From the sequence record NC_093713.1: a DNA stretch of 41,184 bases; one strand, written 5' to 3'. The stretch is from a phage. This document shows positions 747 to 14,824 of the stretch, in pieces. How positions within the stretch are numbered: position 1 is the stretch's first letter; every line of letters starts with the position of its first letter. The notes beneath the pieces were generated by a model that worked only from the letters and a program-made list of their open reading frames with translations, did not search any database and was not told the origin of the DNA. Position numbers and translations under genes: made by a program.

Positions 747-2163
747 GTTTCAAAGGCGCGAATACCAGAAGCTCATGACTTCGTTCATGCTGCGGCACCA
801 TCGCTGCAATATCTGGGCGAGCATGGGCAGCGGTAAGTCGGGGTCAACGTTGTGGGTTCTCAATCGACTGTTCCGTAATGGGCAACTTAATGACGACGAC
901 CGAGTGTTAATTCTGGCTCCTTTACGTGTTGCGTCAGGTACGTGGCCCGCGGAACAGGCATGTTGGAACTTCCCCTGTCTGAGTGTCGTAGACGCAACCG
1001 GTTCAGAGAAGCGCCGTATCGCGGCGCTGGAGTCAGATGCTAACGTGGTGTGCACAAACTACGAAGTTATCGAGTGGCTGATTGACTACTACGGCAAAGA
1101 CGACTGGCCTTTTACGGTTATCGTTGCTGATGAGAGCACGAAGCTGAAATCTTTCCGTAGCCGTTCTGGAGGAAGCAAACGGGCTAAGGCGCTAAGCAAA
1201 GTGGCGTTCGGAAAGGTTAAGCGTTTCATTAACCTGACAGGCACACCGTCGCCGAACGGCCTCAAGGACTTGTGGGGGCAGAACTGGTTTATCGACGCTG
1301 GCGAGCGCCTTGGTTCTTCGTACACGGCATTCACAGACCGCTGGTTTAACTCGGTACAGAAAGGGAAATCCGCGATGGCGCGGGAGTATCACGCACGACC
1401 GGGTGCGGATAATGAGATTCATCAGAAGATGAAAGACATTAGTCTCACGATTGACGCCGCCGAGTGGTTTGGATGTGAAGCGCCGATTATTGTACCAGTG
1501 GAAATTGACCTGCCGAAGAAAGCGCGTCAGGCATATACCGATATGGAGGAGAAGTTATTTGCGGAACTGGAGAGCGGAGAAGTGGAAGCGGCTAACGCGG
1601 CGGCGAAGACGTCGAAGTGTTTGCAGATTGCTTCTGGTGCTGTGTATGTATCAGGGCCAGACGGAGAAGCAACCAAAGACTGGGAGAAAGTGCACGACAC
1701 GAAACTGGATGCGCTGGAGTCAATTGTTGAGGAGTTACAGGGTGCTCCGCTACTGGTAGCCTATCAGTTCAAGCACGAACTGGAGCGTATCCTGAAACGT
1801 TTCCCGCAGGCGCAGGCATTCGCGAAAGGTGCTAAGGGTAATAAGCAGATGGAAGCATGGAACCGCGGCGAAATCGAAATCTTATGCGTGCATCCTGCGT
1901 CGGCCGGACATGGTTTGAATTTACAGGACGGCGGACATCATCTGGCATTCATCTCGCAAGGCTGGAACCTTGAGCACTATTTGCAGGTTGTCGAGCGCAT
2001 AGGCCCAGTTCGCCAGAAGCAGGCAGGCCACGAACGCCCGGTGTTCCTGTATCACATCGTTGCTAAAGACACACTGGACGAGGTTGTTGCCGCGCGTACC
2101 GACGAGAAGAAATCGGTACAGGAAGAGTTGCTTAACTACATGAAGAGACGAGGTAAGAAATGA
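739..2163 (+). CDS. SNF2/DEAD-like superfamily 2 helicase
   Basis: 474 aa; Walker A GSGKSGS, DExx-like VIVADEST, motif III LTGTPSPN; ATG with upstream G-rich SD; overlaps methyltransferase stop. Confidence 0.8.
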   Translation: MSKFQRREYQKLMTSFMLRHHRCNIWASMGSGKSGSTLWVLNRLFRNGQLNDDDRVLILAPLRVASGTWPAEQACWNFPCLSVVDATGSEKRRIAALESDANVVCTNYEVIEWLIDYYGKDDWPFTVIVADESTKLKSFRSRSGGSKRAKALSKVAFGKVKRFINLTGTPSPNGLKDLWGQNWFIDAGERLGSSYTAFTDRWFNSVQKGKSAMAREYHARPGADNEIHQKMKDISLTIDAAEWFGCEAPIIVPVEIDLPKKARQAYTDMEEKLFAELESGEVEAANAAAKTSKCLQIASGAVYVSGPDGEATKDWEKVHDTKLDALESIVEELQGAPLLVAYQFKHELERILKRFPQAQAFAKGAKGNKQMEAWNRGEIEILCVHPASAGHGLNLQDGGHHLAFISQGWNLEHYLQVVERIGPVRQKQAGHERPVFLYHIVAKDTLDEVVAARTDEKKSVQEELLNYMKRRGKK

Positions 2164-8716: not shown

Positions 8717-9213
8717 TGCATCGGGTCCCAAATTCGTGGAAACGTTGATTGTGCAGTTCCGTAGGCTTTAAGGAAACACCCCAGCCCGTCACCATAGCAA
8801 CCGTACAAATCCGGCAGATTGTTAATCAGGCACTGGTTCTCCAGGTCCTGAAACGGCGATTTCTCGGCGGTTGCCGTGAAGGTAATTGTCCAGTTAATGC
8901 CGTCTTCGGTGGACTCCGCGATGGTGGACGTGATGGTTACCTGATAATCCTCGATACCCATGCCGAAGTCGTGCGCCATCCAGAAACTTGACGCACCACC
9001 ATCGACTTTCTCAAGGAACGACAGAAACGCTTGCCGCCCCAGCGCCGATGTGAGCAGGGTTACGCTTATCGGGAACACGTCGTAATACGTGTCACGACCC
9101 TGACGTACCCCGCCGCCAGCTAAATCTACACTCCAGACGTTGTTACGTCTGGTCATCGAGTAGCCTTTCGATACAATTGGCTTAAGGCTACGTGGGAAAT
9201 ATAAGTCGCTCAT
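8713..9213 (-). CDS. minor / distal tail protein (lambda M-like position)
   Basis: 166 aa immediately downstream of tape measure; start overlaps tape measure stop (TAATG). Confidence 0.45.
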   Translation of the reverse strand: MSDLYFPRSLKPIVSKGYSMTRRNNVWSVDLAGGGVRQGRDTYYDVFPISVTLLTSALGRQAFLSFLEKVDGGASSFWMAHDFGMGIEDYQVTITSTIAESTEDGINWTITFTATAEKSPFQDLENQCLINNLPDLYGCYGDGLGCFLKAYGTAQSTFPRIWDPMQ

Positions 9214-11501
9214 TATTTAAACCCCGGCGAGTTTCTTGTGGCTTTGCGGGCCTTGCTAATCTTGCTGTTGCTGTTCTGCAAAGAGGCAGCCACCTGCTCC
9301 TCGATGATGATTCGCAAACGGCCTTCATCATCCTGCTCAGTGGATACGTTGCCGATTTGAGAACTCGTGTTGTTTACGATAGTAACATTAGGCGGGCCGG
9401 AAGAAGACCCGTTTTGCCCCATAATTTCTTTCATCTGCTGTGCTGTGCGAACACGAGATGCGCCAGCAGGCATGATGACTTCTGGTTTACCGCGTTCTGC
9501 GATGGTGGAAGCCTGCCCTGCGGATAACTGTCCCCCCTGTTCACGCGCGGACCTGATAGCGGAAATCTGCGCCATACCCGCCCCAACGGCAGCGGCAGCG
9601 GCTACGGGGGCCAGGAACGGGCCAACTACAGGGATAGCCGCCGTTGACTTGTACGCCTCAATAGCTGCGGTGTACGTGGCTATAGTGGCCTGTACGATAG
9701 CGAATGCCTTGTACGCGCCAGAAGCCTCACCCAACGCAGACCCGATGTTTGAGGCCATGTTACCAAAGGCCGTTGCCGTTGCATCGGCACGTTTGGTTGC
9801 GTATTGCTCGTTGATGGCGTTAAGAGCGGCCTGATACTGCTTCTCGCTAATCAGCCCCTGTTCACGGTATTTATCAGCTACCGCCAGTTTCTGCTGTTCC
9901 TGGATGTCGAGAAGCTCAAGCTCAGTAGCGTTCTGACCCATAATCTGAGCCATGAAGTCGTCACCTTTCTGCTGCTTTTCCTGGGCTTCTTTCTGGCGTT
10001 TATCCAGTTCATCTTGCCGTTTTTGCCCGGCTTCGAGGACGATAGCTGTTTTAGCCTGTTCGTATTCTTTCAGCGACAGCGCGCCCTGGCTGTAGAACTC
10101 TTTTGCCTTAGCCAGTTTCTGCTGTTCCTGCGCGTCGATAGCCTTTAACTCATCGTTGTTCTGGCGAGCCAAAGTGTCGAGGTAATCCTGCGCCTGATTC
10201 CGCAATTGTTCTGCTTTCTTGGCGGCGGCTTTTGCCGCTTTATCGTCGGTGTTTCCTGCCCCGCCAGTTCCGCCCTTTTTATTAACAAGACTGGCTAAGT
10301 CAATTTCTTGCTTCTTGCGCTCGTCGTACTGCTTGCGCTGTTCCTCAATTTCTTTCTTACGCTGCTTAGACCTGTTGGTAATGGCCTGTGATTCTGCCTC
10401 TGCGCGTTTTATGCTAGCGGCGTACGCGGCGTCGGCCTCTGCGGTCAGGTTTTTAAATGTTAGCGCCGCCGTTTTGCTCGGGTCAAACACGTCGGCAAGG
10501 GTCTGCCCTAACGCTACAGCGTAATCGTCGATGCGCTGGAACCACGCAATAACCTCGTGAAATGTCTGCTGGATGTCCGGCAACCACTCACGGATGGCAT
10601 CCGGTATAGTCCCCAGCGAGTCAGACATATCAACGGATTTGTCCTCGGTATCGAATGCCAGGTCATTCAAGGCGTCGGAAATAAACTTGAATGACTCATT
10701 GAACAGCGCCACCCAATCCTGGAGCGTGGCGGCTATCTCATTAGACGCGATGGCGTCGGTAAGCGCCGTGATAGCGTCTTCCGCTGTGGCCGCTTGCTCA
10801 CCTACGGCGTCGCCAAAACCAGACTGCGCCACCGCAAGAACAAGACCGTCGAAGGAGTCGGCGAGGCTCGATAACTGGCCGTCTAGCGTCTTAGAGCGCG
10901 TCTCCATCGCCCCGGCAAAATCGGTGTTGCCGATATTCAGGAGGTATTTCTGAATCTCTTCGGAGTTCTTCTTAACCGTGGTAGTTACGCCGCGGAACGT
11001 GAACGAAACTGTATCTGCCTGTTGCGACGACTTGATGCCGAACTCTTTTAAGCGCTCAAATTCAAATGTACTGGCGTCGGCAACTGCCTCAATCATCTGA
11101 TTAAGGTCTTTACCCATAGCCGCCGCGGTGTTGCCGTAGGAGATTAACGCCTCTTTGCTGGGGTTCAGACCGAGCGCAACGAGCTTGGTAAACCCCTCTA
11201 CCGCCTGATTGAGACCGTACGGGGTCTCTTTTGCGAACTGTTGCAGGACGCTGAAAGCCTTAGCCGCGTTCTCGGCGCTCCCGGTCATCGTGATGAGGCC
11301 GGAGTTCAGCTTATCGAAGTTTCGCTGGGAATCCACCAGCGCGCTGAACACCTGCTTAGCGGTTTCCAGACTGACAACGGCGGCGGCGGCGGCCCCCGCC
11401 GCCTTGGTAAGCCCGTTCAGTTGTGATGTGGTTTTATCGACGCCGGTCGATGATACTCGTACTATCAAGCTAGCGGTATCAGCCATGATTTCTACCTTCA
11501 A
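9213..11501 (-). CDS. tail tape measure protein
   Basis: 762 aa, Ala/Gln/Glu/Lys-rich and helical in character, directly downstream of the tail chaperone pair; probable ATG start at 11486 with SD AAGGT (track start is TTG at 11501). Confidence 0.85.
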   Translation of the reverse strand: MKVEIMADTASLIVRVSSTGVDKTTSQLNGLTKAAGAAAAAVVSLETAKQVFSALVDSQRNFDKLNSGLITMTGSAENAAKAFSVLQQFAKETPYGLNQAVEGFTKLVALGLNPSKEALISYGNTAAAMGKDLNQMIEAVADASTFEFERLKEFGIKSSQQADTVSFTFRGVTTTVKKNSEEIQKYLLNIGNTDFAGAMETRSKTLDGQLSSLADSFDGLVLAVAQSGFGDAVGEQAATAEDAITALTDAIASNEIAATLQDWVALFNESFKFISDALNDLAFDTEDKSVDMSDSLGTIPDAIREWLPDIQQTFHEVIAWFQRIDDYAVALGQTLADVFDPSKTAALTFKNLTAEADAAYAASIKRAEAESQAITNRSKQRKKEIEEQRKQYDERKKQEIDLASLVNKKGGTGGAGNTDDKAAKAAAKKAEQLRNQAQDYLDTLARQNNDELKAIDAQEQQKLAKAKEFYSQGALSLKEYEQAKTAIVLEAGQKRQDELDKRQKEAQEKQQKGDDFMAQIMGQNATELELLDIQEQQKLAVADKYREQGLISEKQYQAALNAINEQYATKRADATATAFGNMASNIGSALGEASGAYKAFAIVQATIATYTAAIEAYKSTAAIPVVGPFLAPVAAAAAVGAGMAQISAIRSAREQGGQLSAGQASTIAERGKPEVIMPAGASRVRTAQQMKEIMGQNGSSSGPPNVTIVNNTSSQIGNVSTEQDDEGRLRIIIEEQVAASLQNSNSKISKARKATRNSPGFK

Positions 11502-11811
11502 AGATTGCTTCTAAGCCCATGATAATGTCTATCTCGAACAGGCTAAGCTGTTTTTGCGTAACATCGAGATAGGCTTTCAGGTCTTGCCACGTAACAGATT
11601 CTCTTGCAAACAATACTACAGCGTCCTCGCGCACGTGTCGCGTAAACTTAATGTCGCAATACGTCTCAAAGGTGGATATAAAAAGGGGCGGGCATTCTGG
11701 CCCACCCCGTCGCGCTGCACGTTTTTTCTTATCGATTACACCCATCGCGATAAGCGCCTGTTCGTGTCCGTCGGCGATAGAATCAAACTCTCTGATTTTA
11801 TGCTTATCCAC
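11479..11811 (-). CDS. tail assembly chaperone, T segment (probably expressed as a G-T fusion by -1 frameshift)
   Basis: ORF is in the -1 frame relative to 11844..12260 and is open from 11862, overlapping the last 6 codons of the upstream gene. Confidence 0.5.
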   Translation of the reverse strand: MDKHKIREFDSIADGHEQALIAMGVIDKKKRAARRGGPECPPLFISTFETYCDIKFTRHVREDAVVLFARESVTWQDLKAYLDVTQKQLSLFEIDIIMGLEAIFEGRNHG

Positions 11812-11843
11812 AAACTCGTAGGTGGCGAACCTGTACAGCGCGT

Positions 11844-12260
11844 CTACTTTTCCTGTAATGCTTTACGCTCGGCGTTATGGAACGCCGCCACCTGTGTACC
11901 TAATGCCTTGAATTGGTCGAGCAATTTGCTAAACGCTTCCTTAGAGAAAGGCTCGTCAAAGCTCCAGCCGTTTACTACTTCTGCCGCAAGTTGCCGGTTG
12001 AGGTCTTCTGCCAGTTCGTTAACCGCCAGGTTATATTCAGTATAATCACCAGAGTCTTTGGCAGCTTTTTCCAGTTCTTCAAAACGTGCCAGCCCGCGGC
12101 GGTACGCAATAATGAAAGCACGCCCCGCTTTAACGGCGGCATCCGCATCTGGATTTACAACGTTAAGCCACTCACCGGAGTCTTCGCCATTCGGCAGGAG
12201 AATCGGCATCTTCTTGCCCGCCAGTGCTTTCTCTTCGAAATAAAAATCAGAAAGTTTCAT
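11844..12260 (-). CDS. tail assembly chaperone (lambda G-like)
   Basis: 138 aa, immediately upstream of tape measure; SD AAGGA before the ATG. Confidence 0.55.
   Translation of the reverse strand: MKLSDFYFEEKALAGKKMPILLPNGEDSGEWLNVVNPDADAAVKAGRAFIIAYRRGLARFEELEKAAKDSGDYTEYNLAVNELAEDLNRQLAAEVVNGWSFDEPFSKEAFSKLLDQFKALGTQVAAFHNAERKALQEK
11847..11853 (-). promoter_or_regulatory. candidate -1 programmed ribosomal frameshift site (mRNA G GAA AAG followed by TAG)
   Basis: A-site AAG to AAA slip is possible at the last sense codons of the G-like ORF; downstream frame open for ~120 codons. Confidence 0.4.
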
Positions 12261-12368
12261 TCTTTAATCCTTTGGTTAAGAGGTTACAGGTTAACGATAA
12301 ATGCGCCAGACGGGAACCACCCGCTTTTCGTGTGCGACACTAGGCGCAAAATTATTCTATCACATTAC

Positions 12369-12397
12369 TTGCACACCCCAATATAATAGGGTACTAT
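12369..12397 (+). promoter_or_regulatory. sigma70-like promoter (TTGCAC-N17-TACTAT) carrying the conserved palindromic element
   Basis: Element AATAGGGTACTATTCA at 12380..12400; same architecture on the - strand at 30306..30334 and 31115..31143. Confidence 0.55.
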
Positions 12398-12427
12398 TCA
12401 CTTACACCAACAATGGAGGGATTTAAA

Positions 12428-12619
12428 ATGTCAAGTTTACCAGTTTCCTTAATTCTGTTTGCACTTCTCGTTTATTTTGCGCCTTTCCTGGTTGCGTACT
12501 TCCGTAACCATAAAGCGAAGTTAGCGATATTCATGGCTAATCTGTTTCTTGGCTGGGCGCTGCTGCCGTGGGTCTTTATTTTAATCTGGGCGTGCAACTC
12601 GAATGTTAACGAGAAGTGA
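12428..12619 (+). CDS. superinfection immunity-like small membrane protein (Imm_superinfect-like)
   Basis: 63 aa from the ATG preceded by GGAGGG; sequence FRNHKAKLAIFMANLFLGWALLPWVFILIWA matches the family signature as recalled; two hydrophobic segments. Confidence 0.6.
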   Translation: MSSLPVSLILFALLVYFAPFLVAYFRNHKAKLAIFMANLFLGWALLPWVFILIWACNSNVNEK

Positions 12620-12657
12620 GCTAGTATAGGACAAATCCTAAACACGAGGAAGTAAGT

Positions 12658-13788
12658 ATGGCCCAGAAGAAAATAACCGACGAACAGTTGCAGGAAGAAT
12701 TGAACGCCGGGATGAAGAATATCGATATAGCTCGTAAATACGGCATCTCTGACCGCGTTATCCGTATCCGTAAAGCGAAGCTGGCTAAGAAAGGCGTAGG
12801 CCACGGGCGCGACGTTAGTCACCTTGTGCCGGACGGCTACAAGATTAAAGGAACGTCGTCGCTGGTGGACGAGTTCGGCAACACTAAGTTGCAATGGGTT
12901 AAGACAGACACCGATGCTGAACGTCAGGTCGAGTTGATGAAAGCCGTAATCGAAGGAATGAAATCAGAGATTACGCCAGTCGCCCCTGTTAAAGCAGCAC
13001 GCGCCAAACGCGACGGCAAGCTACTCAATCTTTACACGGTATCTGATTTTCACCTCGGTATGCTGGCATGGGCTGACGAGAGCGGCGACGACTGGGATAT
13101 GAAAATCGCGGAAGACCTGTTCTCTCGTTGGTTCGATGCCGCGTTTCAGAAAGCGCCGGATGCAGGAACAGGAGTTATTAATCTGCTCGGCGACCTTGCG
13201 CACTTCGATAGCCTGGACGCCGTTACACCGGCAAGTGGTCATGTTCTCGATGCGGACACGCGCTATCAGAAACTGGTCCGCTACATGATTCGTATGGTCC
13301 GCCGTGTCGTTGATATGGCCCTTGTTAAGCATAAAAATGTTCGCTTGCTTATTGTGCAAGGTAACCACGACGAAAGCGGAATGATTTGGTTAGCTGAGAT
13401 GTTCAGCACACTGTACGACAATGAGCCTCGTGTGTTCGTCGATACGTCGCCGGATGTTTACAAGATGGTGCAACACGGCAAAACGACGCTGTTCTTTACA
13501 CACGGGCATAAATGCCGGTTTGAGGTGGTCGAACCCATTATGATAGCTAAGTTCAGAAAAGCATTTGGCGAAAGCGAGTACAGTTACGCACATGTCGGGC
13601 ATCTCCACCACCAAAAGATTGTAGAAAGCCGTAACATGGTTGTTGAGCAACATCGCACCTTAGCGGCGAAAGATGCATATGCTTCCCGCGGCGGGTGGAT
13701 GTCAGGCCGTAGCGCAAACGTAATTACTTATAGCGCCGAATATGGCGAGGTCGCACGTTTAACTATTTCACCGGAGATGCTTGGATGA
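12658..13788 (+). CDS. calcineurin-like metallophosphoesterase with N-terminal HTH domain
   Basis: 376 aa; motifs SDFHLG, LGDLAHFD, QGNHDE, THGH, GHLHH; N-terminal MKNIDIARKYGISDRVIRIRKAK HTH; SD GAGGAA. Confidence 0.7.
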   Translation: MAQKKITDEQLQEELNAGMKNIDIARKYGISDRVIRIRKAKLAKKGVGHGRDVSHLVPDGYKIKGTSSLVDEFGNTKLQWVKTDTDAERQVELMKAVIEGMKSEITPVAPVKAARAKRDGKLLNLYTVSDFHLGMLAWADESGDDWDMKIAEDLFSRWFDAAFQKAPDAGTGVINLLGDLAHFDSLDAVTPASGHVLDADTRYQKLVRYMIRMVRRVVDMALVKHKNVRLLIVQGNHDESGMIWLAEMFSTLYDNEPRVFVDTSPDVYKMVQHGKTTLFFTHGHKCRFEVVEPIMIAKFRKAFGESEYSYAHVGHLHHQKIVESRNMVVEQHRTLAAKDAYASRGGWMSGRSANVITYSAEYGEVARLTISPEMLG

Positions 13789-14270
13789 AAGATATTGTGA
13801 TTTTCGATTTAGACGGGACATTGGCAGATGGTACTCATCGTTTACACCTGCTGCCGAAAGATAACTACGGCGAAACCTGGGCGTGGAAACCATTTAACAT
13901 GGCGTGCAAAGACGATGCACCCATTAAAGATAACATCGAACTGTGTAACGCCCTTAATCGTCGCTATGCCGTTATTATCTTAACAGGCCGTAGTGATGAC
14001 GCGGAAAAAGAAACCAGAATGTGGTTGCAGCGCCACCGCGTCGAATTTTATCAGTTAATCATGCGCAGCAAACACGACAACAGAAAAGACATCGTAATTA
14101 AAGAAGAGGTGTTGCGTGCTATTGGGCCGGAGAGAATCTTGTGTGCATTCGACGACTCTCCAGCGGTAATAAAGCATTTCCGCGAACTCGGCATAACCAC
14201 TCACGCAGTTACTGAATACGACTGTAACGGGAACTCTACACACTTAAAACCACATGGGAGTGATAAATAA
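13785..14270 (+). CDS. HAD-superfamily phosphatase, similar to the 3'-phosphatase domain of T4 polynucleotide kinase
   Basis: 161 aa; DxDGT motif IVIFDLDGTLA; recalled alignment to T4 Pnk phosphatase (VIILTGRSD..., KEEVL...AFDD); start overlaps upstream stop (ATGA). Confidence 0.7.
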   Translation: MKDIVIFDLDGTLADGTHRLHLLPKDNYGETWAWKPFNMACKDDAPIKDNIELCNALNRRYAVIILTGRSDDAEKETRMWLQRHRVEFYQLIMRSKHDNRKDIVIKEEVLRAIGPERILCAFDDSPAVIKHFRELGITTHAVTEYDCNGNSTHLKPHGSDK

Positions 14271-14824
14271 TGGCTAAGGTAATTATTCTTAATGGTCCTG
14301 CGGGCTGCGGGAAAGACACACTTGCTAGGGCGCTGGTAGAAATGGGCTTTGCGAAGGGTGTCGCCAGTTTCAAGAATCCGATGTTCAATATTGCTATGGC
14401 TGCGTTAGGCCAGGATGCTTACCGCGAGTTTCTCGACGGCTACGACGACCGGGCGCGGAAAGAAAAGCCAGAGGGTTTCCTTAACGGGTTGTCTCGGCGT
14501 CAGTTCATGATTGCCATTTCCGAGCAATTCATTAAACCGGTATTCGGTGATGATTATTTCGGTAAGTATCTTGCCGGAAACTTGCCCGACGGCGACGAAG
14601 TTTTTGTGGTGTCTGATGGCGGGTTCGCCAGCGAAGTAGCCCCTATCGTTGCCGCAGGGCATGATGTGAGAATCGTCCGCTTGCACAGAGACGGCCATAC
14701 GTTTGAAGGGGACAGCCGCGGTTACCTGTACGATATTGATGGTGTAAAAGATTATGACACCTACATCATACCGGGTTACGTTAAATCGAACGCTATAGGC
14801 ATTGCTTTAAGATTAGGTTTGTAA
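14270..14824 (+). CDS. deoxynucleoside monophosphate kinase-like P-loop kinase
   Basis: 184 aa; P-loop GPAGCGKDT and a C-terminal block resembling T4 gp1 dNMP kinase from memory; start overlaps upstream stop (TAATG). Confidence 0.65.
   Translation: MAKVIILNGPAGCGKDTLARALVEMGFAKGVASFKNPMFNIAMAALGQDAYREFLDGYDDRARKEKPEGFLNGLSRRQFMIAISEQFIKPVFGDDYFGKYLAGNLPDGDEVFVVSDGGFASEVAPIVAAGHDVRIVRLHRDGHTFEGDSRGYLYDIDGVKDYDTYIIPGYVKSNAIGIALRLGL

What the first reader, a model, noticed from the sequence alone, without database searches (positions are those of the whole stretch)
11479..12260. Candidate -1 programmed frameshift joining the two tail assembly chaperone ORFs
The ORF 11479..11811 is in the -1 frame relative to 11844..12260 and is open from 11862, overlapping the last six codons of the upstream gene. 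The mRNA reads CAG GAA AAG UAG there, allowing an A-site AAG to AAA slip just before the stop. This matches the conserved G/GT arrangement upstream of tape measure genes, although the heptamer GGAAAAG is not the canonical X XXY YYZ form.
Basis: partly seen in the sequence, partly recalled or inferred. Interest (0 to 1): 0.45.

Follow-up and report, generated by a model that had tools for sequence, protein, structure and literature searches.

The report
Known tail-chaperone −1 frameshift (A_AAG-stop)
This is the phage's tail-assembly chaperone gene pair, where a few ribosomes probably slip back one base on A-AAG just before the stop codon and make a longer fusion protein; the signal looks real but is already annotated in the public records of this phage (K1ind2/K1ind3).

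Summary
The window is the reverse complement of Escherichia phage K1ind2/K1ind3 (Kagunavirus). On the minus strand, G (12260..11844, 138 aa, Phage_TAC_4) is followed by a −1-frame ORF (open 11862..11479, Phage_TAC_18). That ORF ends 8 nt inside the tape measure gene.

The junction reads CAG_GAA_AAG_UAG. GenBank GU196280/GU196281 (2010) and RefSeq already carry a joined CDS. My predicted 260-aa fusion (…LQEK-VDALY…) is identical to ADA82419.1. The finding is therefore a rediscovery.

Comparison adds one point. In 69 distinct homologous junctions (43–99% aa identity) the last G codon is always AAG, preceded by a codon ending in A and followed directly by a stop. The preceding codon varies: GAA 49, GCA 13, GUA 4, AAA 2, GGA 1. 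So the conserved signal is the tetramer A_AAG plus the stop, not the heptamer.

Some relatives have no start codon for the first 108 T codons. No conserved hairpin or SD-like stimulator was found. Nothing has been tested experimentally.

Side observations:
- Unexplained synonymous invariance of GCG_YUG just 3′ of the site.
- A covarying terminator-like hairpin inside the T frame.
- An int-alpA-like RNA in the operon leader.

The parts
11844..12260 (-). Gene G: tail assembly chaperone, 138 aa, ending in UAG 11846..11844
   Evidence: Pfam Phage_TAC_4 and phrog_15027 positions 1-138. Annotated as ORF21A/22A in K1ind2/K1ind3.
11847..11850 (-). Shift site A_AAG. tRNA-Lys re-pairs from AAG (11849..11847) to AAA (11850..11848). 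It lies within the non-canonical heptamer G_GAA_AAG (11853..11847).
   Evidence: Sequence. Invariant in 69 of 69 distinct homologous junctions, while the preceding codon varies among GAA, GCA, GUA, AAA and GGA.
11844..11846 (-). Zero-frame stop UAG directly 3' of the shift site (possible 'shifty stop')
   Evidence: A stop (UAG or UAA; UGA in L030) directly follows AAG in all homologues examined. A stimulating role is inferred, not shown.
11863..11865 (-). UAA in the -1 frame. It closes the T frame upstream and limits the shift window to 19 nt.
11479..11847 (-). T extension read in the -1 frame from GUA 11847..11845 to UGA 11481..11479 (122 codons). Fusion GT = 138 + 122 = 260 aa.
   Evidence: Pfam Phage_TAC_18 1.1e-18 and phrog_15027 positions 137-259. 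The fusion is identical to ADA82419.1, ADA82468.1 and YP_009597354.1. Wobble-position periodicity switches to the -1 frame right at the junction.
11836..11841 (-). GCGCUG: T-frame Ala-Leu codons with no synonymous variation among relatives. Candidate 3' context element; function unexplained.
   Evidence: GCG in 25 of 25 and YUG in 25 of 25 representatives, while other invariant residues vary freely at the wobble position.
9213..11486 (-). Tape measure protein gene. Its ATG 11486 overlaps the T stop by 8 nt.
   Evidence: phrog_1538 1.5e-194 and Pfam TMP_3. Annotation.
11676..11708 (-). Intrinsic-terminator-like hairpin (9 bp, 8 GC, 6-nt loop) plus UUUUUAUAU, embedded in the T coding frame. Side observation, not part of the shift signal.
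   Evidence: Top terminator-like hit. dG about -20.6 kcal/mol, z = -2.2. Covariation in relatives. Present at the same place in 43 of 77 distinct T regions.
12286..12350 (-). int-alpA-like structured RNA (Rfam RF02996) in the leader 26 nt upstream of the G start. Side observation.
   Evidence: 31.8 bits against a gathering score of 35.8, E = 2e-4, full-length model match. Same motif upstream of G in 8 of 20 divergent relatives, one above the gathering score.

Best explanation
G and T are the two tail assembly chaperone reading frames of a Kagunavirus, expressed as G (138 aa) and a G-T fusion (260 aa) by -1 programmed ribosomal frameshifting.

Shown:
- Gene order, frames and homology.
- A 19-nt shift window.
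- A conserved A_AAG plus stop.
- No conserved start for T.

Inferred:
- Most ribosomes decode ...CAG GAA AAG and terminate at UAG.
- A small fraction slip when the single E. coli tRNA-Lys (anticodon UUU) un-pairs from AAG (11849..11847) and re-pairs one base back on AAA (11850..11848).
- GUA (Val, 11847..11845) is then read, and translation continues for 122 codons to UGA 11481..11479.
- The product is ...ALQEK-VDALYRF....

Relatives show that re-pairing of the upstream tRNA is not required in this family, so the core event is a single-tRNA slip. It most plausibly occurs with tRNA-Lys in the P site while the slowly decoded stop occupies the A site. In this phage, partial re-pairing of tRNA-Glu (GAA to GGA, with a G.U pair in the middle) may add to it.

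By analogy with lambda, the G part would bind the tape measure protein and the T part would recruit the tail tube protein. The fusion would be made at a few per cent of G.
For: 1. Annotation. The window is 100% identical to K1ind2/K1ind3 over 1 kb. Those records carry a two-piece joined CDS over exactly 12260..11479. My predicted fusion is an exact match to ADA82419.1; the alternative junction ...QGK... is absent from the collection.
2. Family membership. Pfam TAC_4 and TAC_18, and a PHROG built from fused products. The tape measure gene lies directly downstream. The tail terminator gene and a 390-aa tail protein gene (phrog_290; its homologues are annotated as tail tube/major tail protein in Shashou and Smarc3) lie upstream.
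3. Conservation. In 69 distinct junctions from IMG/VR plus GenBank relatives, NNA_AAG is followed directly by a stop in every case, and T is always in the -1 frame. The penultimate codon is GAA 49, GCA 13, GUA 4, AAA 2, GGA 1. C_GCA and A_GCA cannot re-pair in the P site.
4. Coding periodicity. The weakly conserved codon position moves from zero-frame position 3 to -1-frame position 3 exactly at the junction.
5. No independent start. GUG 11811 is not conserved. L106 and L110 have no ATG/GTG/TTG before T codon 108, L094 none before codon 94, and L097 none before codon 57.
6. Literature. Z_ZZN is the minimal -1 motif. A_AAG is by far the best tetramer in E. coli. NNA_AAG sites are used by IS1222 and occur in B. 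subtilis cdd. E. coli has a single tRNA-Lys. The lambda G:GT ratio is about 30:1 (PMC5009743; PMC4066793).
Against: - No experimental evidence exists for this phage or its subfamily. No held paper describes the site.
- In reporter assays, tetramers without a stimulator were barely above background (0.147% against 0.112%). Even the best V_VVA_AAG heptamers gave about 0.3% (PMC4066793).
- I found no conserved stimulator. The downstream fold is no better than shuffles (z = +0.4 and +0.6). The alignment fold gives -0.2 kcal/mol with no covariation. An SD-like sequence lies 4-17 nt upstream in only 5 of 25 representatives.
- The stimulating role of the adjacent stop is inferred only.
- The authors of phage Shashou, which has the identical junction, wrote that there is no canonical slippery sequence. 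They annotated T from a UUG.
Confidence: 0.88

Rival explanations
1. Same frameshift and same product, but in this phage the operative event is classical tandem slippage of two tRNAs on the heptamer G_GAA_AAG. tRNA-Glu moves GAA to GGA in the P site and tRNA-Lys moves AAG to AAA in the A site.
For: - GAA is the penultimate codon in 49 of 69 distinct junctions, always preceded by G.
- GAA to GGA keeps two Watson-Crick pairs plus a G.U pair.
- A close relative (Raoultella phage RP180, L020/L046) has the canonical lambda-type G_GGA_AAG, and two environmental relatives have A_AAA_AAG.
- Heptamers are more shift-prone than tetramers (PMC4066793).
Against: - 13 of 69 junctions have C_GCA, A_GCA or G_GCA and 4 have G_GUA. 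There, P-site re-pairing is impossible or poor, yet A_AAG plus stop is kept.
- The base before the penultimate codon is not conserved (G, C or A).
- The middle-position mismatch makes G_GAA non-canonical.
Confidence: 0.2
2. There is no frameshift. T is made as a separate small protein from its own start: GUG 11811, AUG 11745, or UUG/CUG three codons after the junction, as annotated in Shashou, SE2 and Bas73/74.
For: - Several records annotate T as a stand-alone CDS.
- In the Jerseyvirus/Shashou lineage, a UUG lies 12 nt after an AGGA that sits in the slip site.
- The wobble G of that YUG codon is invariant.
- An AUG at T codon 34 is present in 19 of 26 sequences.
Against: - In this window that codon is CUG, as in 22 of 25 representatives.
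- GUG 11811 has no SD-like sequence and is GUC/GUU in close relatives.
- Some relatives have no start codon for 57-108 codons, yet the whole T frame is conserved as protein from the junction Val onward.
- This model does not explain the invariant A_AAG or the A-ending penultimate codon across five amino acids.
- In lambda, the G part of the fusion binds the tape measure protein and the T part links it to the tail tube protein (PMC5009743). A T made without the G part would therefore lack the tape-measure contact, by analogy.
Confidence: 0.05
3. The -1 change is made at the RNA level. RNA polymerase slips on the A run and adds one A, giving a subpopulation of mRNAs in which G and T are in frame.
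For: The site contains AAAA (11851..11848). Transcriptional slippage is a known alternative route to such fusions (PMC5009743 title and text).
Against: - Four A is far shorter than known slippage-prone runs (own knowledge).
- 17 of 69 relatives have only AAA (GCAAAG, GUAAAG) yet keep the arrangement.
- The strict reading-frame phase of A_AAG and the adjacent stop are not needed for slippage by polymerase.
Confidence: 0.01

Closest known systems
The public annotation of this same locus: K1ind2 ORF21A/21B and K1ind3 ORF22A/22B (GU196280, GU196281, NC_041898; protein ADA82419.1)
   Same: Identical DNA over the 1001 bases compared (window 11400-12400), identical coordinates for the two-piece CDS, and an identical 260-aa fusion sequence.
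   Different: Nothing differs in substance. The records give no mechanism or evidence. Related records are inconsistent: some carry a joined CDS (fKuEco01, Smarc3), while many annotate a separate T ORF with an arbitrary start.
Phage lambda G/GT tail assembly chaperone frameshift (Levin 1993; Xu, Hendrix & Duda 2004, 2013, as cited in PMC5009743)
   Same: - Two overlapping ORFs directly upstream of the tape measure gene.
- The downstream ORF is in the -1 frame, with the shift near the end of G.
- No conserved RNA stimulator was found here.
- The A-site codon is AAG.
- Presumed low, fixed G:GT ratio.
   Different: - Lambda uses the canonical G_GGA_AAG. Here the heptamer is G_GAA_AAG, and in relatives only A_AAG is kept.
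- Here the zero-frame stop is always the very next codon.
- The G and T proteins belong to other Pfam families (TAC_4, TAC_18).
- A 2.4-kb block of opposite-strand genes separates G from the tail tube gene.
Hexanucleotide NNA_AAG -1 shift sites: IS1222 (G_CGA_AAG) and Bacillus subtilis cdd (A_CGA_AAG)
   Same: Single-tRNA-Lys slip on A_AAG with no re-pairing of the upstream tRNA. Low-level frameshifting that depends on the 5' codon (PMC5009743).
   Different: - The 5' codon here is GAA (GCA, GUA, AAA or GGA in relatives), not CGA.
None is conserved here.
- The adjacent stop is invariant here.
E. coli dnaX A_AAA_AAG
   Same: Same host tRNA-Lys and the same AAG-to-AAA re-pairing (PMC5009743). 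Two relatives (L091, L095) actually carry A_AAA_AAG at this site.
   Different: dnaX has a full heptamer plus an upstream SD and a downstream stem-loop, and is highly efficient. Its frameshift product is the shorter protein.

Membership tests
G/GT-type tail assembly chaperone pair expressed by -1 programmed frameshift | Two ORFs between the tail tube gene and the tape measure gene, directly upstream of the latter | tested here: met
   The T stop overlaps the tape measure ATG. TMP matches phrog_1538 at 1.5e-194. The 390-aa tail protein gene (phrog_290; homologues are annotated as tail tube/major tail protein in Shashou and Smarc3) and the tail terminator gene lie upstream. A 2.4-kb opposite-strand insert sits in between; it is absent in Serratia and Klebsiella relatives.
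G/GT-type tail assembly chaperone pair expressed by -1 programmed frameshift | Downstream ORF in the -1 frame, overlapping the end of G, without its own conserved start or ribosome-binding site | tested here: met
   A -1 frame with 19-nt overlap. The frame is -1 in all 79 related loci. No conserved start; some relatives have none for 108 codons.
G/GT-type tail assembly chaperone pair expressed by -1 programmed frameshift | Canonical X_XXY_YYZ slippery heptamer in the overlap | tested here: not met
   G_GAA_AAG is not X_XXY_YYZ. Only 3 of 69 related junctions are canonical: G_GGA_AAG once and A_AAA_AAG twice. The minimal Z_ZZN form is met. I recall published surveys of tail-gene frameshifts listing non-canonical sites, but I did not check this.
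G/GT-type tail assembly chaperone pair expressed by -1 programmed frameshift | Sequence membership of tail assembly chaperone protein families | tested here: met
   Pfam Phage_TAC_4 (26.3 bits, cut-off 21.1) and Phage_TAC_18 (67.6 bits, cut-off 27). phrog_15027 at 3.5e-72 and 1.2e-70.
G/GT-type tail assembly chaperone pair expressed by -1 programmed frameshift | Fusion protein actually made at a low fixed ratio and needed for tail assembly | not testable with these tools
   No experimental report was found in the held literature.
Tetra/hexanucleotide (NN)A_AAG single-tRNA -1 shift sites | In-phase A_AAG decoded by the single tRNA-Lys of the host | tested here: met
   A_AAG at 11850..11847 in the zero-frame phase. 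Invariant in 69 of 69 junctions. The host is E. coli, which has one tRNA-Lys (PMC5009743).
Tetra/hexanucleotide (NN)A_AAG single-tRNA -1 shift sites | Re-pairing of the 5' (P-site) tRNA is not required | tested here: met
   Met at family level. GCA (13) and GUA (4) penultimate codons, preceded by C, A or G, cannot re-pair, yet the site is kept. For this phage alone (GAA) it cannot be decided.
Tetra/hexanucleotide (NN)A_AAG single-tRNA -1 shift sites | A stimulator: upstream SD-like sequence or downstream structure | tested here: not met
   No conserved structure. SD-like sequence 4-17 nt upstream in 5 of 25 representatives. An invariant adjacent stop and an invariant GCG_YUG are the only conserved flanking features.
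'Shifty stop' frameshift sites | [quoted passage not shown] | tested here: inconclusive
   The position is met in all homologues: UAG, UAA, and UGA in L030. The effect on shifting cannot be measured here. The fixed position could also simply avoid a long zero-frame extension of G.
Rho-independent terminator (side observation, 11708..11676) | GC-rich hairpin directly followed by a U tract, on the transcribed strand | tested here: met
   9 bp with 8 GC, followed by UUUUUAUAU. Covariation in relatives. Termination activity was not tested.

The most novel reading that the evidence does not exclude
The frameshift may be wired into transcription. The G-T-tape-measure operon starts with a conserved int-alpA-like leader RNA. 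It also carries a covarying intrinsic-terminator hairpin inside the T frame, about 135 nt after the G stop.

Only ribosomes that have shifted into the T frame translate through that hairpin. A shifted ribosome following RNA polymerase closely could prevent the hairpin from forming. If so, read-through into the tape measure gene would be coupled to GT synthesis, as an attenuation-like mechanism. Transcripts whose lead ribosome stops at UAG would terminate. This would set the tape measure mRNA level by the frameshift rate.

A milder variant: the invariant GCG_YUG 3' of the stop is a new kind of short 3' context stimulator for a minimal A_AAG-stop shift site.
Probability: 0.06. Interest if true: 0.6.

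Novelty: already known. Interest (0 to 1): 0.2.

Why it matters
Practically, it matters for annotation. Of the roughly 500 related phage records found, many I opened list T as a free-standing 'hypothetical protein' with arbitrary starts, including a CUG. One genome paper dismisses the frameshift because the heptamer is not canonical. The rule 'NNA_AAG followed directly by a stop, with T in the -1 frame' would correct these records. It also shows that predictors which demand X_XXY_YYZ miss real sites.

Biologically, it is a clean natural series. A minimal tetranucleotide site is kept over deep divergence. Occasional lineages have upgraded it to canonical heptamers (G_GGA_AAG, A_AAA_AAG). This makes a useful test bed for how little signal a low-level -1 frameshift needs in E. 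coli. None of it changes the accepted picture of G/GT chaperones.

Tried and rejected
- **Downstream stimulatory structure.** Folding 57 and 107 nt after the site gave energies no better than shuffles. RNAalifold on 25 divergent relatives over 82 and 173 nt gave only three weak pairs and no covariation. Rejected.
- **Upstream SD-like stimulator.** Present 4-17 nt upstream in only 5 of 25 representatives. The AGGA in CAGGAAAAG abuts the site, is too close, and is not conserved. Rejected.
- **Independent start for T.** Rejected; see the rival explanations.
- **Other shift sites in the window.** The 19-nt overlap holds no other slippery motif.
- **Transcriptional slippage.** The A run is too short, and relatives have only AAA.
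- **First IMG/VR scan with the T protein alone.** It returned only near-identical phages. A profile of divergent G proteins was needed.
- **Literature.** A search for 'GGAAAAG' plus frameshift returned nothing on phages. The primary paper on NNA_AAG hexanucleotide motifs is not held, so I relied on the review PMC5009743.
- **Rfam.** No family matches the slip region itself.
Full report
**What is there.** All genes discussed lie on the minus strand.
- An ORF of 138 codons runs from ATG 12260 to UAG 11846..11844.
- A second frame opens after a UAA at 11865..11863 and runs to UGA 11481..11479.
- It is displaced by -1. Zero frame reads GCA UUA CAG GAA AAG UAG; the -1 frame reads AGC AUU ACA GGA AAA GUA GAC.
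- The overlap is 19 nt.
- The tape measure gene starts at ATG 11486, inside the last codons of the second frame.

**Identity.**
- The first ORF matches Pfam Phage_TAC_4. The second matches Phage_TAC_18 at 1.1e-18. The third is a tape measure protein.
- One PHROG profile of 259 positions, phrog_15027, matches the first ORF over positions 1-138 and the second over 137-259. It was therefore built from fused products.
- Upstream lie the tail completion gene, the tail terminator gene and a 390-aa tail protein gene (phrog_290 'minor tail protein'). Homologues of the 390-aa protein are annotated as tail tube or major tail protein in Shashou and Smarc3.
- These are separated from G by about 2.4 kb of opposite-strand genes: superinfection immunity, exonuclease and polynucleotide kinase.

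**Already annotated.**
- The 1-kb region is 100% identical to Escherichia phages K1ind2 and K1ind3 (Kagunavirus, Guernseyvirinae).
- The original 2010 GenBank records, and RefSeq, carry a two-piece joined CDS (ORF21B/22B) beside the short ORF21A/22A. It spans exactly the interval of the finding.
- I built the product expected from a slip on GAA_AAG: 138 + 122 = 260 aa...ALQEK-VDALYRF....
- This sequence is present letter for letter as ADA82419.1, ADA82468.1, YP_009597354.1 and UniRef100_D2XJT9. A junction one codon earlier (...QGK...) is not on record.
- The finding is therefore a correct rediscovery.

**Is the frameshift real?** Annotation in relatives is inconsistent.
- Some records join the frames, for example fKuEco01 and Serratia Smarc3 ('pre-tape measure frameshift protein').
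- Many annotate a separate ORF with different starts.
- The genome paper of phage Shashou states that there is 'no canonical slippery sequence' (PMC6776780). Yet Shashou has the identical CAG GAA AAG TAG junction.

I therefore compared relatives. A profile of eight divergent G proteins retrieved 80 IMG/VR loci. Seventy-nine contained the G stop. They gave 69 distinct junction sequences, at 43-99% amino-acid identity to the window's G. The results:
- The last sense codon is AAG in all of them.
- The codon before it always ends in A.
- A stop (UAG or UAA) follows directly.
- The T frame is always -1.
- The penultimate codon is GAA in 49, GCA in 13, GUA in 4, AAA in 2 and GGA in 1.
- The base before it is G, C or A.

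Klebsiella phage VLCpiS11a reads AAC GCA AAG UGA. The amino acid changes (E, A, V, K, G), but the A-ending codon is always the one chosen. Those codons make up only 54, 23, 29, 57 and 12% of their families in this genome, and AAG is 43% of Lys codons. Treating the five codon families as independent gives a chance of about 4e-5. This is my rough estimate, and relatedness is ignored within each class.

Further support:
- Conservation by codon position switches from the zero frame to the -1 frame exactly at the junction.
- The T protein is conserved from the junction Val onward: V-x-A-L-[YLF]-x-[FY]-A-x-W.
- No start codon is conserved. GUG 11811 lacks an SD-like sequence and is GUC/GUU in close relatives.
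- L106 and L110 have no ATG/GTG/TTG before T codon 108 of 121, L094 none before codon 94, and L097 none before codon 57.

Independent initiation cannot explain expression of this conserved frame.

**Mechanism.** The conserved element is the tetramer A_AAG plus the adjacent stop, not the heptamer. What the literature says:
- Z_ZZN is the minimal -1 motif.
- A_AAG is the best-studied such motif, and NNA_AAG sites operate in IS1222 and B. subtilis cdd.
- Efficiency depends on the 5' codon.
- E. coli decodes AAA and AAG with one tRNA-Lys (PMC5009743).
- In a systematic E. coli assay A_AA.G was by far the best tetramer, at 5.6% with a pseudoknot. Without a stimulator, tetramers were near background, and the best V_VVA_AAG heptamers gave about 0.3%, rising to about 3.7% with a favourable 3' context (PMC4066793).

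My inference is as follows. tRNA-Lys slips from AAG to AAA, and GUA is read next. GCA and GUA lineages cannot re-pair the upstream tRNA, so a single-tRNA slip is the family's common mechanism. The invariant stop suggests the slip happens with tRNA-Lys in the P site while termination is pending, the 'shifty stop' idea. That role is not shown. The stop's fixed position could equally just prevent a long zero-frame extension of G.

In this phage, GAA to GGA re-pairing (G.U in the middle) may contribute. The protein product is the same either way. By analogy with lambda, where G:GT is about 30:1 (PMC5009743), I expect a few per cent.

**Stimulators.** None was found.
- Local folds are no better than shuffles.
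- Alignment folds give -0.2 kcal/mol, three pairs and no covariation.
- SD-like sequences at a useful distance occur in 5 of 25 representatives.
- Rfam has nothing at the site.

One unexplained feature remains. The two T-frame codons at 11841..11836 are GCG in 25 of 25 representatives and YUG in 25 of 25. Other invariant residues nearby use two to five synonymous codons. The base after the stop is A or C in all 25 (G in L030). This may be a 3' context effect. It could also reflect use of YUG as a reinitiation codon, but CUG is a poor initiator (own knowledge), and that model leaves A_AAG unexplained.

**Side observations.**
- *Terminator-like hairpin.* A 9-bp GC-rich hairpin followed by UUUUUAUAU lies on the coding strand inside the T frame (11708..11676). 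It is the strongest terminator-like site between 9000 and 13000, with dG about -20.6 kcal/mol and z = -2.2. Relatives keep a hairpin at the same place with compensatory changes: pair types GC 7 / AU 6 and AU 7 / GC 3 / CG 2. The covariation score is 0.305 against 0.144 in shuffles, with 0 of 500 shuffles reaching it. One slid control, at +3, reached 0.303, so this control does not separate the structure cleanly. My own scan found a terminator-like site in 45 of 77 distinct T regions. Forty-three of these lie at the same place, 132-139 nt after the G stop. The Jerseyvirus-type and Cornellvirus-type lineages lack it. It is too far from the shift site to stimulate slipping. A partial terminator that lowers tape measure expression is a plausible reading.
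- *Leader RNA.* The leader 26 nt upstream of G matches the Rfam int-alpA RNA over its whole length: 31.8 bits, against a gathering score of 35.8, with E = 2e-4. The same motif lies upstream of G in 8 of 20 divergent relatives, one above the gathering score. Its function is unknown.
- *Speculation.* Together these invite the idea that shifted ribosomes suppress the embedded terminator. I rate this as unlikely but not excluded.

**Verdict.** It is already in the public record for this phage, and the mechanism belongs to known kinds (G/GT chaperone frameshift; A_AAG tetranucleotide site). The modest added value is the comparative rule 'NNA_AAG followed directly by a stop'. It resolves the conflicting annotations in this subfamily.

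Noticed in passing
window 11676..11708, minus strand: An intrinsic-terminator-like hairpin (9 bp, 8 GC, then UUUUUAUAU) sits inside the T coding frame, about 135 nt after the G stop. Relatives keep it with compensatory changes. It is present in 43 of 77 distinct T regions and absent in Jerseyvirus- and Cornellvirus-type lineages. It may be a partial terminator between G and the tape measure gene.
   Followed up: partly
window 12286..12350, minus strand: A full-length match to Rfam int-alpA RNA (RF02996), 31.8 bits against a gathering score of 35.8, E = 2e-4, in the leader 26 nt upstream of the G start. The same motif lies upstream of G in 8 of 20 divergent relatives, with L056 above the gathering score. 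Its function is unknown.
   Followed up: partly
window 11836..11841, minus strand (GCGCUG): No synonymous variation in the Ala-Leu codons just 3' of the stop: GCG in 25 of 25 and YUG in 25 of 25. Other invariant residues vary freely. The base after the stop is A or C in 25 of 25. Unexplained.
   Followed up: partly
window 12413..14824, plus strand: A block of opposite-strand genes (superinfection immunity, DNA repair exonuclease, polynucleotide kinase) interrupts the tail module between the 390-aa tail protein gene (likely the tail tube gene) and G. It is absent at this position in Serratia phage Smarc3 and Klebsiella phage VLCpiS11a. G-T-TMP must therefore have its own promoter in 12261..12412.
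   Followed up: no
L114 (Shashou MK931440) 14794..14818; also L002, L023, L025, L026, L027: Public records with the same A_AAG-stop junction annotate T as a separate ORF with differing starts: UUG, CUG or internal codons. The Shashou paper states that no canonical slippery sequence exists. These annotations are probably wrong.
   Followed up: yes
L031 (Vibrio phage 1.117.O) about 1358..1369; L033 (Serratia phage Opt-155) about 1412..1423: Distant G-like genes (28-32% identity) also have a -1 ORF running into the tape measure gene. The overlap contains U_UUU_UUC in the Vibrio phage and C_CGA_AAG in the Serratia phage. Neither record annotates a frameshift.
   Followed up: no
L024 (OR594180.1, Escherichia phage vB_EcoM_SHAK7693): The record's taxonomy line places this Guernseyvirinae-like siphovirus in Autographiviridae/Kayfunavirus. 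This looks like a misclassification.
   Followed up: no
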